From NCBI RefSeq assembly GCF_003334385.1, contig NZ_QOWN01000008.1: 64,000 nt of DNA. One strand, given 5' to 3'. Source of the stretch: Escherichia coli. Its GTDB lineage: Bacteria > Pseudomonadota > Gammaproteobacteria > Enterobacterales > Enterobacteriaceae. A program made the position numbers. This document shows positions 3,001 to 6,000 of this stretch, in pieces (the first letter of the stretch is position 1; each line of letters starts with the position of its first letter).

Positions 3001-6000
3001 CTACCACCATGGTTTTCCCCTCTTCTGCCAGTTGCTGCATAATACGCAACACTTCGCCTACCAGTTCAGGATCGAGCGCCGAGGTAGGTTCATCAAACAG
3101 TAAAACTTCCGGTTCCATCGCCAGCGCCCGCGCGATAGAAACACGCTGTTGCTGACCGCCGGAAAGATGCACCGGATATTTCCCCTGCGCACGTTCGTCT
3201 ATCCCGACTTTTGCCAGATACTTCACCGCCCGCTCGCGCGCTTCCTGCTTGCTCAGGCCCAACACCTGAATCGGCGCTTCCATGACGTTTTCCAGCACCG
3301 TCATATGGCTCCAGAGATTGAAGTGCTGGAATACCATCGTCAGGCGTGTGCGCAGTAAGCGCAGTTGATTTTTATCGGCGACTTTGAGTTGACCGTCTTT
3401 GTCGCGCACCAGATTGATCGTCTGGCCATTGACCACGATCGACCCTTCACTCGGTTTTTCGAGGAAGTTAATGCAGCGCAGAAAGGTACTTTTCCCCGAT
3501 CCCGACGATCCGATGATGCTTATTACATCTCCGGCATTCGCTTGCAGTGATACCCCTTTCAGCACTTCATGTTCGCCGTAGCGTTTGTGCAAATCGATAA
3601 CGTTTAATTTATTCTCGGACATCGTATTCTCAGTGCGTTGAAGAAGGTTTCACATGCTGCAACCAGCGTTTTTCCGCTCTGCGAAAGAGGCTGAGCAGGA
3701 CATAAGAGATGATTAAATAGAGCACCGCGGCAATGCCGAAGGCGGTAAAAGGTTGATACGTGGCGGCGTTAATATCGCGGGCTATTTTCAGCAGATCCGG
3801 CACCGTGGCAGTAAATGCCAACGCAGTAGAGTGCAGCATCAGGATCACTTCGTTGCTGTATGCCGGTAACGCAATACGCAGCGCAGAAGGCAAAATAATG
3901 CAGCGATACATTTTAAAAGTCGAGAAGCCATAGGCTCTGGCGGCTTCAATTTCCCCATGCGGAACCGAACGGATTGCCCCAGCAAAAATCTCGGTAGTGT
4001 AAGCGCAGGTGTTAAGCGTCAGCGCCAGCACGGTACAGTTCAGGCCACTGCGGAAGAAAGCGTTAAGGAATTCGGTTCCCTTAACAATCTCAAGCGTGTA
4101 CATGCCGGAATAGAACACCAGCAACTGAACATACAGCGGCGTACCGCGAAAAATATAGGTAAATAACCAGATTGGAAACTGGATGTATTTATTACTGGAG
4201 ACACGACCAATCGCCAGAAACAGCGCCAGGACTCCGCCTATCACTACCGACAAAATAAGCAGCCACAGAGTGATCGCCACACCAGTAAAGCGATAACCGT
4301 CGGTCCACAGCAGCGGTTTCCAGTATTCATGTAAGATTTCGATCACAGGTCAGCCCTCTTCACACCCACGGAGTAGCGGCGCTCAAGGAACAGCAGCACA
4401 CCATTGGAAACAGTGGTGAAAACCAGGTAAATCACGCCACAGACGATGGCGAAATAGAACGGTTCCCAGGTACTTTTGCCTGCCAGTTGGGTGGCTTTGA
4501 CCACATCTTCCAGGCCGAGTAACGAAACCAGTGCGGTAGATTTGAGGATCACCTGCCAGTTGTTGCCAATGCCTGGCAGGGCGTAACGCATCATCGACGG
4601 AAACATGATCCGCCGAAACACTTGCCCACGAGTAAAACCGAACGCCGTCGCCGCCTCTATATGTCCTTTCGGCACTGCCATAAAAGCACCACGGAACGTT
4701 TCGGTAAAATAAGCACCGTAGATAAAACCGAGAGTGATAATACCAGCGACCATCGGATCGATATCAATCTGCCCGACGCCCATCGCCTCCGTCACCGTGT
4801 TTAGCGCAATCTGCAAACCGTAGAAAATCAGCAGCATCAACACTAAGTCCGGCACGCCACGAATCAGCGTGGTGTACCCTTCGAAAATCAGCCCCGAAAG
4901 CCGATTTTGCGAGAGCTTACCGCCAGCGCCAATTAAACCGATGATTACAGCGAGCACTACAGAGCTGATAGCCAGCTCCAGCGTGACGAGCGCACCCTGT
5001 AAAATAACACCTGAAAACCCATACAACATGCTGCCTGTCCTGTCGTGTGTGGTGAATTACCGCCTCTTGTCTCCCTCCGGTTACCCGAAGGGAGCGGGCT
5101 TTCTTTCACCGATGGCGATTAGCCACCATAAACATCAAAATCGAAGTACTTTTTCGCTAATTTCTCGTAAGTACCGTCAGCGCGCATTTCGGCAAAGGCT
5201 TTGTTCAGTGCTTCGCGCAGTTCGTTATCTTCTTTACGCAGGCCCATGCCGGTCCCTACGCCAAACAGTTTTTCATCTTTAACAGACGGGCCACCGAATT
5301 TGTAATCTTTACCGACAGGTTGTTTGAGGAAACCTTCGCTGGCAGCGACCTCATCCTGGAACGCGGCATCAATACGTCCGGCAGTCAGGTCAGAATAAAT
5401 GTTGTCCTGCCCCTGATACGAGACGATTTCAATGCCTTTTGGTGCCCAATGTTCATTACCGAACGTCTCCTGGGTGGTGCCCTGCAATACGCCTACCCGT
5501 TTGCCTTTCAGCGACTCGACTGTCGGCTGAATGTCAGAATTTTTCGCCACCACCAAACGAGAATCGGCAGCGTACAGTTTGTCGGTGAAGGCTATTTCTT
5601 GCTGACGTTTTTCCGTAATGGAAAGCGATGACATGATGGCGTCAATCTTCTTCGCTTTTAAGGACGGGATTAACGCATCCAGCGGATTTTCGACAAACGT
5701 ACATTGCGTATTGATGCGTTTGCATAATTCCTTTGCCAGATCGATATCGAAGCCAACCAGTTCGCCTTGTGAATTTTTTGATTCAAATGGCGCATAGGTC
5801 GGGTCGGTACCGATGCGGATGTTTTGCGGAATCGCAGCAAACGCCGCAGTTGCGCTGGAGAAGGCCAGAACCAGAGAGAGCGATAGCACCAGTTTTTTCA
5901 TAATGTCCTCAACTGACAGTCTTTTTATAGGGAATATTTACAGGTTTGTTACACTTATCGTGCCATAAAATTGACCATCAAGGCAAAATATCCCGCCCCG

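What the first reader, a model, noticed from the sequence alone, without database searches (positions are those of the whole stretch)
5071..5094. GC-rich hairpin in the hisJ-hisQ intercistronic gap
A 9/10-bp stem with a 4-nt loop follows hisJ without a U-tract. It is positioned like the classic intercistronic stabiliser that lets the upstream binding-protein message accumulate over the downstream permease and ATPase messages.
Basis: partly seen in the sequence, partly recalled or inferred. Interest (0 to 1): 0.25.

Follow-up and report, generated by a model that had tools for sequence, protein, structure and literature searches.

The report
Protective hairpin after E. coli hisJ
This is a real RNA hairpin between the hisJ and hisQ genes of E. 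coli that most likely shields the upstream binding-protein message from degradation, but a 2018 genome-wide study already catalogued it, so it is a correct and ordinary finding.

Summary
The hairpin exists at 5071-5094. The genes run on the minus strand, and on the mRNA the stem is better than reported: 10 of 10 pairs (one G.U), a GUAA loop, -18.6 kcal/mol and no U-tract. The flanking genes are hisJ and hisQ of E. coli. The sequence is unique in the genome, matches no REP consensus and has no Rfam hit.

Dar & Sorek 2018 (PMC5927463) list exactly this hairpin as a 3' protective structure. Their term-seq 3' end lies 6 nt after the stem (window 5065). hisJ mRNA is about 5.8-fold more abundant than hisQ mRNA and about 3.7-fold longer-lived. 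The gene pair passed their filters against internal promoters, intrinsic terminators and Rho termination.

My comparison of 80 Enterobacteriaceae loci adds evolutionary support:
- All 60 distinct short gaps carry a strong hairpin without a U-tract at this position.
- The hairpin sequences differ between genera, and the stems show compensatory changes.
- Salmonella and several Citrobacter lineages carry a REP pair at the same site instead.

Directly downstream lies a published GcvB sRNA target that covers the hisQ ribosome-binding site.

Caveats: the published half-life ratio has no replicate spread, an independent data set gives only 1.4-fold, and nobody has mutated the E. coli stem. Novelty: already known. 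Interest is low.

The parts
5119..5901 (-). hisJ coding sequence (periplasmic histidine-binding protein), the stabilised upstream cistron
   Evidence: ORF. Annotated as hisJ in all 5,426 complete E. coli genomes and in K-12 MG1655.
5071..5094 (-). Core hairpin CUCCCUUCGG-GUAA-CCGGAGGGAG: 10 bp including one U.G, GNRA-type loop, no U-tract
   Evidence: Sequence. Fold of -18.6 kcal/mol, z = -4.2. Listed as a 3' protective structure of hisJ in Dar & Sorek 2018 S6. One copy per genome.
5096..5099 (-). 5' strand (GCCC) of a predicted outer helix that extends the hairpin base
   Evidence: Folds. Alignment A1 columns 21-24 pair with columns 61-65; 2 of the 4 pairs change on both sides between clades. 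Predicted only.
5062..5066 (-). 3' strand (G.GGC) of the predicted outer helix
   Evidence: The published 3' end at 5065 falls inside this strand, so the outer helix can be complete only in the unprocessed transcript (inference).
5065..5065 (-). In vivo RNA 3' end of the stabilised hisJ segment, 6 nt after the stem (...GGGAGACAAGA-3')
   Evidence: Term-seq position 2419431 in Dar & Sorek 2018 S6. I mapped it to the window by its sequence. It corresponds to about 2,425,952 in MG1655, using the offset.
5053..5061 (-). GGUAAUUCA, the only A/U-rich stretch of the gap; candidate entry site for an endonuclease
   Evidence: Inference from the sequence only. It does not match the strict RN|WUU RNase E motif and is not conserved in other genera.
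5029..5051 (-). C/A-rich pairing site for the R1 seed of the sRNA GcvB; overlaps the hisQ Shine-Dalgarno AGGACAGG (5034..5041) and the A of the AUG
   Evidence: Duplex prediction of -22.8 kcal/mol; 4% of random 201-nt segments do as well. GcvB repression of hisQ through R1 was verified with a hisJ-hisQ intraoperonic reporter in Miyakoshi 2021.
4343..5029 (-). hisQ coding sequence (permease subunit), first gene of the less stable downstream segment hisQMP
   Evidence: ORF; annotation; decay data.

Best explanation
The hairpin is an RNA-level barrier to 3'-to-5' exonucleases inside the hisJQMP (argT-hisJQMP) transcript.

Proposed sequence of events:
1. RNA polymerase reads through the hairpin, because it lacks the U-tract needed for intrinsic termination.
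2. The poorly protected hisQMP part of the message is cut by an endonuclease, presumably RNase E. Cutting may be promoted when GcvB pairs with the hisQ ribosome-binding site 20 nt downstream of the hairpin.
3. 3' exonucleases (PNPase, RNase II) degrade back to the hairpin and stall a few nucleotides short of its base.
4. This leaves a translatable hisJ mRNA that ends 6 nt after the stem and outlives the hisQMP segment.

The result is several-fold more hisJ mRNA than hisQ mRNA. That contributes to the large excess of binding protein over membrane transporter that type I ABC importers need.

Shown: the structure, the absence of a U-tract, its conservation with covariation, the in vivo 3' end, and the mRNA ratio.
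Inferred: which nucleases act, where the initiating cut falls, and that the stem causes the effect.
For: - Structure. A 10-bp stem of -18.6 kcal/mol with z = -4.2 on the sense strand, and weaker on the antisense strand. There is no U-tract and the terminator scan does not call it.
- Published E. coli data (Dar & Sorek 2018, PMC5927463). The term-seq 3' end lies 6 nt after this hairpin. hisJ is stabilised relative to hisQ, with a half-life ratio of 3.72 and an mRNA ratio of 5.83 +/- 2.81. The pair passed filters against an internal TSS, an intrinsic-terminator signature and Rho termination in bicyclomycin data.
- Salmonella. The mRNA ratio there is 4.77 +/- 0.47, and the 3' end follows the second REP at the same site.
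- Conservation of the hairpin. In 60 distinct short hisJ-hisQ gaps from other Enterobacteriaceae, the best hairpin averages -20.8 kcal/mol against -11.5 +/- 3.4 for shuffles. It beats all 10 shuffles in 54 of 60 gaps. No tail meets the terminator-scan criterion of at least 5 T in 8 nt, and most tails are A-rich.
- Covariation. In alignment A1, 97% of cells pair, against 46-61% when the partners are slid, and 0 of 500 shuffles reach the observed value. In alignment A2, 94% pair against 33-55%, and 7 of 11 pairs show compensatory changes.
- Strand asymmetry. The sense strand folds better than the antisense strand in 42 of 60 loci, p = 0.004. This points to function in the RNA.
- REP substitution. 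A REP pair sits between the same conserved flanks in 15 loci and a single REP core in one more (16 of the 17 long gaps); there are no REP cores in the short gaps.
- Within E. coli. 5,426 of 5,426 genomes carry the sequence. The variants I examined change only the loop.
- Biological need. Binding proteins of type I importers are in 10- to 200-fold excess over the transporter.
Against: - No mutation of this stem has been tested in E. coli, so the causal link rests on correlation.
- The half-life ratio of 3.72 has no standard deviation. The same table gives only 1.39 from the Moffitt 2016 data.
- The steady-state ratio (5.8) exceeds the half-life ratio (3.7). Some contribution from partial termination or from another source of hisJ-only transcripts is therefore not excluded.
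- An independent 3'-end data set (Adams 2021) has no hisJ entry in the supplementary text held. Those files may be truncated, so this is inconclusive.
- The mRNA ratio of about 4-6 cannot by itself explain a protein excess of 10-fold or more. Translation efficiency must also differ.
- No good RNase E motif lies between the hairpin and hisQ.
Confidence: 0.8

Rival explanations
1. Leaky transcription terminator. The hairpin stops a fraction of RNA polymerases without a U-tract, or it marks the trimmed end of transcripts terminated by Rho a little further downstream. On this view the hisJ excess is set at transcription rather than by decay.
For: - The steady-state hisJ:hisQ ratio (5.83) is higher than the half-life ratio (3.72; 1.39 in the Moffitt data), which leaves room for a transcriptional component.
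- A precise 3' end just after a stable stem is also what trimmed Rho-dependent transcripts look like (theme of PMC6061677, listed).
- In Atlantibacter-type loci the equivalent hairpin is followed by TTATAA or TTTTAA, which is more terminator-like.
Against: - The E. coli tail is ACAAGAGG with no U-tract, and the consensus scan does not call a terminator.
- Across the 60 distinct short gaps no tail meets the terminator-scan criterion of at least 5 T in 8 nt; the T count is 0-4 and most tails are A-rich.
- Dar & Sorek kept the pair only after excluding intrinsic-terminator signatures and substantial bicyclomycin-sensitive termination. They state that no significant Rho termination was seen at these sites.
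- The 120 nt downstream are 22.5% C and 30% G, which is not rut-like.
Confidence: 0.1
2. Translational tuning element. The hairpin mainly sets how well hisQ is translated. It could organise the fold of the gap so that the hisQ ribosome-binding site and the GcvB site stay exposed or occluded, or it could stop ribosomes that terminate at hisJ from re-initiating. Any mRNA stabilisation would then be a by-product.
For: - The hairpin is immediately upstream of a conserved C/A-rich tract and Shine-Dalgarno sequence that is a verified GcvB target.
- The protein excess of at least 10-fold is larger than the mRNA ratio, so translational control must exist at this junction.
- My unverified recollection is that Stern et al. 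1988 also discussed translational effects of the Salmonella gap. The paper could not be read.
Against: - The stem ends 41 nt before the AUG and 20 nt before the GcvB site, and it does not overlap the Shine-Dalgarno sequence.
- Predicted long-range pairings with the hisQ start have very low ensemble frequency, 0.005.
- This rival does not explain why an RNA 3' end accumulates right after the stem.
- It also does not explain why stems of unrelated sequence, or REP pairs, serve equally well at different distances from hisQ, 14-51 nt.
Confidence: 0.07
3. DNA-level or mobile-element remnant. The palindrome is a degenerate REP/BIME-type element or a protein-binding DNA site with no role in the RNA.
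For: - REP pairs occupy the same site in Salmonella and several Citrobacter lineages.
- An IS4-family element inserted exactly into the loop in one strain, so the site can be a target for mobile DNA.
Against: - There is one copy per genome in 5,426 genomes and one copy in the window.
- No REP-core match at up to 3 mismatches was found in any short gap.
- G.U pairs make the sense RNA fold better than the antisense strand, and the two would be equivalent as DNA.
- Compensatory changes preserve the pairing.
- The RNA 3' end maps to the hairpin.
Confidence: 0.03

Closest known systems
The hisJ 3' protective structure catalogued by Dar & Sorek 2018 (PLoS Genet 14:e1007354, Table S6)
   Same: It is the same element. 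The sequence is identical (GCCCGCUCCCUUCGGGUAACCGGAGGGAGACAAGA), the predicted fold is the same 10-bp stem with a 4-nt loop, and the proposed role is the same: protecting the stabilised upstream gene hisJ.
   Different: Nothing differs. That study reports it only as one row of a supplementary table, without a mutational test and without any discussion of this element.
REP pair in the Salmonella typhimurium hisJ-hisQ intercistronic region (Higgins et al. 1982, Nature 298:760; Stern et al. 1988, Mol Microbiol 2:141)
   Same: - Same operon and same junction, between the same conserved flanks (AAAGCCC ... AAAAGAGGC).
- Same outcome, with a hisJ:hisQ mRNA ratio of 4.8 in Salmonella and 5.8 in E. 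coli.
- In Salmonella the 3' end follows the second REP.
   Different: - The Salmonella element is a pair of dispersed REP repeats of about 35 nt each, in a gap of about 181 nt.
- The E. coli element is a unique 24-nt hairpin in an 89-nt gap, with no REP consensus.
- My account of what the 1982 and 1988 papers found rests on citations in reviews and on my own knowledge. The papers themselves could not be read.
malE-malF intercistronic REP stabiliser of E. coli (Newbury et al. 1987; summarised in PMC5927463)
   Same: - It sits in an ABC importer operon with the binding-protein gene first.
- It is a stable structure in the gap after that gene.
- Endonucleolytic cleavage downstream is followed by an exonuclease block at the structure.
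- The upstream mRNA is about 3-fold more stable.
   Different: The malE-malF structure is made of REP sequences. The hisJ hairpin is a unique sequence.
Intrinsic (Rho-independent) terminators, for example those after hisP and argT in this window
   Same: A G+C-rich stem-loop at the 3' end of a cistron. The size is similar to the hisP terminator stem at 2842..2819, which has 10 bp and a 4-nt loop.
   Different: There is no U-tract after the stem, and transcription continues into hisQMP.

Membership tests
Intra-operon 3' protective stem-loop (differential-decay stabiliser, malE-malF type) | A stable stem-loop lies just 3' of the stabilised cistron, inside a polycistronic transcript | tested here: met
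   The hairpin starts 24 nt after the hisJ stop codon and lies upstream of hisQMP on the same strand. Energy -18.6 kcal/mol, z = -4.2.
Intra-operon 3' protective stem-loop (differential-decay stabiliser, malE-malF type) | It is not a terminator: no U-tract and no Rho dependence | tested here: met
   The tail is ACAAGAGG and the terminator scan does not call it. The published filters against terminator signatures and bicyclomycin-sensitive termination were passed. The Rho part rests on published data only.
Intra-operon 3' protective stem-loop (differential-decay stabiliser, malE-malF type) | An RNA 3' end accumulates in vivo a few nucleotides downstream of the stem | tested here: met
   The published term-seq 3' end lies 6 nt after the stem, at window 5065. 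This was read from the paper's table, not measured by me. It was not found in a second data set, whose stored files may be incomplete.
Intra-operon 3' protective stem-loop (differential-decay stabiliser, malE-malF type) | The upstream segment is more abundant than the downstream segment at steady state | tested here: met
   The hisJ:hisQ mRNA ratio is 5.83 +/- 2.81 in E. coli and 4.77 +/- 0.47 in Salmonella (published data).
Intra-operon 3' protective stem-loop (differential-decay stabiliser, malE-malF type) | The upstream segment has a longer half-life than the downstream segment | tested here: inconclusive
   The half-life ratio is 3.72 but without a standard deviation. The same table gives 1.39 from the Moffitt 2016 data.
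Intra-operon 3' protective stem-loop (differential-decay stabiliser, malE-malF type) | Disrupting the stem destabilises the upstream mRNA, and restoring the pairing rescues it | not testable with these tools
   This needs mutagenesis plus decay measurements. A natural allele with ISEc13 in the loop exists in strain TUM14697, but no expression data are available for it.
Intra-operon 3' protective stem-loop (differential-decay stabiliser, malE-malF type) | The structure, rather than the sequence, is conserved in orthologous operons | tested here: met
   All 60 distinct short gaps have a hairpin, averaging -20.8 against -11.5 kcal/mol for shuffles. Compensatory changes occur in 5 of 11 pairs (A1) and 7 of 11 pairs (A2). 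None of 500 shuffles reaches the observed values, and the slide controls are far lower.
REP / BIME repetitive extragenic palindromes | Many dispersed copies per genome | tested here: not met
   There is one place per genome in 5,426 E. coli genomes even at E-value 10. The window holds one copy at up to 3 mismatches.
REP / BIME repetitive extragenic palindromes | Match to the REP consensus (for example the core CTTATCCGGCCTAC) | tested here: not met
   No hit at up to 3 mismatches in the E. coli gap or in any other short gap. In contrast, 16 of the 17 long gaps (Salmonella, Citrobacter) match, and genuine REPs are found elsewhere in the window.
Intrinsic terminator | A G+C-rich hairpin followed directly by a run of U | tested here: not met
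   The hairpin is present, but the next 8 nt are ACAAGAGG with no T. The scan that detects the hisP and argT terminators does not report it.
Rho-dependent terminator | A C-rich, G-poor rut region and read-through when Rho is inhibited | tested here: not met
   The 120 nt downstream are 22.5% C and 30% G. The authors report no substantial bicyclomycin-sensitive termination for the pairs they retained.
Any curated RNA family (Rfam 15) | A covariance-model match | tested here: not met
   No match in 2500..8000 at E-value up to 10, apart from one irrelevant chance hit at 6037..6055.

The most novel reading that the evidence does not exclude
The hairpin and the adjacent GcvB site may work as one two-part module. 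GcvB pairing at the hisQ ribosome-binding site (5029..5051) would trigger the endonucleolytic cut that starts decay of hisQMP. The hairpin 20 nt upstream would act as an insulator that keeps hisJ mRNA intact. The sRNA would then change the ratio of binding protein to transporter, rather than simply silencing the operon. The repeated replacement of the unique hairpin by other stems or by REP pairs across genera would reflect selection for this insulation. The evidence does not exclude this reading, and nothing found here shows it.
Probability: 0.2. Interest if true: 0.4.

Novelty: already known. Interest (0 to 1): 0.15.

Why it matters
Binding-protein-dependent ABC importers need far more periplasmic binding protein than membrane transporter, and both are encoded in one operon. 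This hairpin is one of the devices that turn uniform transcription into unequal expression.

It sits at the junction where REP sequences were first described in Salmonella. In E. coli a unique hairpin occupies that site instead.

The practical value is modest:
- It confirms that a sequence-only reader can recognise such stabilisers.
- It documents that the position and the pairing are conserved across Enterobacteriaceae while the sequence turns over.
- It identifies a natural IS-disrupted allele that could serve as a ready-made test strain.

Tried and rejected
- Rfam search of 2500..8000 at E-value up to 10 found nothing relevant.
- A full-text search for hisJ together with term-seq returned 0 papers.
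- Stern et al. 1988 is not held in the library. My statements about the Salmonella experiments therefore rest on citing papers, Dar & Sorek's Salmonella table and my own knowledge.
- The Adams 2021 3'-end tables have no entry for hisJ, hisQ, b2308, b2309 or coordinates 242594x-242596x in the held text. This is inconclusive because stored files may be truncated.
- No supplements are held for Dar & Sorek's NAR 2018 paper on Rho.
- A search with an invalid term failed. A broad six-term search was mostly noise but surfaced the key paper.
- The first GcvB duplex prediction, with full-length RNAs, gave a meaningless whole-length duplex no better than shuffles, and I discarded it. I redid it with the R1 seed region and 24-nt target windows.
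- A search for the RNase E motif RN|WUU found no site between the hairpin and the hisQ start, only sites inside hisQ at 5019..5001. The initiating cleavage site therefore remains unknown.
- I considered and rejected a REP identity, an intrinsic terminator and a Rho terminator.
- I made no protein-level searches, because the RefSeq annotation of hisJ and hisQ in 5,426 genomes was unambiguous.
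Full report
**What is there.** The window is E. 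coli chromosome. The region 2849..6904 carries argT, hisJ, hisQ, hisM and hisP on the minus strand. A 351-nt query across the junction hits hisJ and hisQ in all 5,426 complete E. coli genomes at 95% identity or more, and the K-12 MG1655 record gives the same gene order. hisJ is 5119..5901, hisQ is 4343..5029, and the gap between them is 89 nt (5030..5118).

**The hairpin.** On the mRNA strand the flagged bases 5071..5094 read CUCCCUUCGG-GUAA-CCGGAGGGAG.
On the transcript that position is a U.G wobble, so the stem is 10 of 10, with a GNRA-type tetraloop.
- ViennaRNA gives -18.6 kcal/mol with z = -4.2, and 0 of 200 shuffles fold as well. The antisense strand gives -13.1.
- The 8 nt after the stem are ACAAGAGG, so there is no U-tract.
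- The consensus terminator scan does not report the hairpin. It does report stems followed by U-runs after hisP (2842..2819) and after argT (6007..5994).
- Perfect stems of this strength are rare: 8 in the window over both strands, against 1.05 +/- 1.5 in shuffles.

**What it is not.**
- It matches no Rfam family.
- The MG1655 record annotates no feature in the gap.
- It is not a REP. A 34-nt query at E-value 10 finds one place per genome in 5,426 genomes. The window holds one copy at up to 3 mismatches. The REP core CTTATCCGGCCTAC is absent at up to 3 mismatches, although real REPs are found elsewhere in the window.

**Published experimental evidence.** Dar & Sorek 2018 (PMC5927463) mapped differential decay within E. 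coli operons.
- Their text names the histidine transporter among the ABC systems in which the substrate-binding subunit is the stabilised gene.
- Table S3 lists the hisJ/hisQ pair with hisJ stabilised. The half-life ratio is 3.72 with no standard deviation. The steady-state mRNA ratio is 5.83 +/- 2.81. The half-life ratio from the Moffitt 2016 data is 1.39.
- Table S6, 'E. coli 3' protective structures', lists a term-seq 3' end whose upstream sequence is ...GCCCGCTCCCTTCGGGTAACCGGAGGGAGACAAGA. Its fold is exactly this stem of 10 bp with a 4-nt loop, at -19.9 kcal/mol. The 3' end is 6 nt after the stem, at window 5065.
- Their selection rules excluded pairs with an independent TSS for the downstream gene, a hairpin-plus-U 3' end on the upstream gene, or substantial Rho termination in bicyclomycin data. 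They state that these structures lack U-tracts and show no significant Rho-dependent termination.
- Their Salmonella table gives a hisJ:hisQ ratio of 4.77 +/- 0.47 and a 3' end just after the second REP of the gap.

**Comparative evidence obtained here.** A scan of one genome per species returned 80 hisQ loci from Enterobacteriaceae. I extracted the hisJ-hisQ gap from each.
- Short gaps. The 60 distinct short gaps (57-100 nt) all contain a strong hairpin. Mean energy is -20.8 kcal/mol (range -27.6 to -13.2), against -11.5 +/- 3.4 for dinucleotide shuffles. The hairpin beats all 10 shuffles in 54 of 60 gaps. No tail meets the terminator-scan criterion of at least 5 T in 8 nt, and most tails are A-rich.
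- Different sequences in different genera. Escherichia has CTCCCTTCGG. Some Citrobacter have CTCCCTCC..GGGAGGGAG. Enterobacter, Kosakonia and Lelliottia have CCCCTCCC..GGGAGGGG with an outer CGTG/CACG helix. Klebsiella and Raoultella have CCATCGCGCGC. Kluyvera has CCCATCGTTTCG. Pseudocitrobacter has CCGTCGCCCC.
- Covariation, alignment A1 (40 sequences). 97% of cells pair, against 46-61% when the partners are slid. Five of 11 pairs change on both sides. None of 500 shuffles reaches the observed paired fraction or covariation score.
- Covariation, alignment A2 (16 sequences). 94% of cells pair, against 33-55% when slid. Seven of 11 pairs are compensatory, again with 0 of 500 shuffles reaching the observed values. 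The tool's caveat that related sequences can beat column shuffles applies, but the slide controls keep relatedness and are far lower.
- Strand asymmetry. The sense strand folds better than the antisense strand in 42 of 60 loci (Wilcoxon p = 0.004, with hairpins searched independently on each strand). This is expected for a function in RNA.
- Long gaps. Of the 17 long gaps (138-289 nt), 16 carry REP cores and 15 carry them as an inverted pair. These are Salmonella enterica subspecies, the C. freundii group and C. amalonaticus. The REP insert lies between the same conserved flanks (AAAGCCC ... AAAAGAGGC) that bracket the unique hairpin in Escherichia and in the Citrobacter lineages without REPs.

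The classic Salmonella REP element and the E. coli hairpin are therefore positional and, by the transcript data, functional equivalents. Because the outgroups all have unique hairpins, the REP pair is most simply a derived replacement (inference).

**Variation within E. coli.** The 34-nt core is at least 99% identical in 4,969 of 5,426 genomes. The variants I examined change only the loop: GUAA to GUAU in strain TUM17543, GUAA to GCUA in L003, and a six-base loop in E. albertii. One genome, TUM14697, has an IS4-family ISEc13 element inserted in the loop with a duplicated TCGGGTAACC.

**Surroundings.** The stretch 5051..5029, beginning 20 nt downstream of the stem, is C/A-rich (CACACACGACAGGACAGGCAGCA). 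It includes the hisQ Shine-Dalgarno sequence and the first base of the AUG. It is the best predicted partner of the GcvB R1 seed in the 201 nt around the junction, at -22.8 kcal/mol, and 4% of random segments do as well. Miyakoshi et al. 2021 (PMC9299463) verified that GcvB represses hisQ through R1, using a hisJ-hisQ intraoperonic reporter. The hairpin does not overlap this site.

**Mechanism.** The best-supported model is the malE-malF type of differential decay.
1. Polymerase reads through the hairpin.
2. The hisQMP part is cleaved by an endonuclease.
3. 3' exonucleases degrade back and stall at the stem.
4. A stable hisJ mRNA ending at 5065 remains.

Shown: the structure, the missing U-tract, the conservation with covariation, the in vivo 3' end and the mRNA ratio. 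Inferred: the identity of the nucleases, the site of the first cut and the causal role of the stem. No RN|WUU motif lies between the stem and hisQ.

The mRNA ratio of about 4-6 is smaller than the 10- to 200-fold protein excess reported for type I binding proteins. Differential translation must therefore add to it.

**Rivals.** Leaky termination is weakened by the missing U-tract, the non-rut-like composition downstream (22.5% C, 30% G) and the published filters. It is not fully excluded, because the steady-state ratio exceeds the half-life ratio. A purely translational role does not explain the 3' end or the interchangeability of unrelated stems. A DNA-level or repeat-remnant role conflicts with the single copy number, the strand asymmetry and the covariation.

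**Verdict.** The element is already catalogued in the literature as a protective 3' structure, though it has never been tested individually. The finding is therefore already known and of low interest. The only open points are the missing mutational proof and a possible functional link with the neighbouring GcvB site.

Noticed in passing
window 5029..5051 (- strand): A C/A-rich tract covers the hisQ Shine-Dalgarno sequence (AGGACAGG, 5034..5041) and the A of the AUG. It is the best predicted pairing partner of the GcvB R1 seed (-22.8 kcal/mol). GcvB repression of hisQ is published (PMC9299463). The tract begins 20 nt downstream of the hairpin and is conserved across genera.
   Followed up: partly
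L083 (NZ_CP128888.1, E. coli TUM14697), locus 1411..3059: An IS4-family ISEc13 element is inserted in the loop of the hairpin, with TCGGGTAACC duplicated on both sides. This is the only such case among 5,426 genomes and is a natural disruption allele. The same strain lacks rpnB between hisP and yfcH.
   Followed up: partly
window 930..967 (+ strand), inside yfcH (821..1714), downstream of folX (438..800): A second pair from the same published catalogue lies in this window. Dar & Sorek list folX/yfcH as differentially decaying, with a term-seq 3' end that maps to window 967. The structure there is weak (-10.6 kcal/mol) and lies 146 nt into yfcH.
   Followed up: partly
window 10062..10103 and 22922..22958; single cores at 19478..19491 and 45551..45564: Genuine REP cores (CTTATCCGRCCTAC type) occur here, two of them as inverted pairs (BIME-like). 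I used them only as a positive control for the REP scan.
   Followed up: no
window 10458..10485 (+), 14501..14526 (-), 17971..18000 (-), 25451..25479 (-): Four other perfect stems of 10-11 bp (-17 to -22 kcal/mol) have no T-rich tail. They could be further decay-protective or regulatory structures. Their gene context was not examined.
   Followed up: no
L045, L051, L061 (Atlantibacter-type loci), hisJ-hisQ gap: The equivalent hairpin (GCGCCCCGG..CCGGGGCG) is followed by TTATAA or TTTTAA, which looks more like a true terminator. L061 has a 289-nt gap with no REP core and extra sequence of unknown nature.
   Followed up: no
window 5071..5094, and alignment A1: In Escherichia, Citrobacter and Enterobacter-type loci the 3' arm (GGAGGGAG / GGGAGGGG) resembles a Shine-Dalgarno sequence and the 5' arm resembles its complement. 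The Klebsiella and Kluyvera stems do not show this. It may only reflect shared ancestry of these stems.
   Followed up: no
window 5096..5099 with 5062..5066 (- strand): A predicted outer helix (GCCC with G.GGC) extends the hairpin base and shows two-sided changes between clades in alignment A1. The published 3' end at 5065 lies inside its 3' strand, so the helix could exist only before processing.
   Followed up: partly
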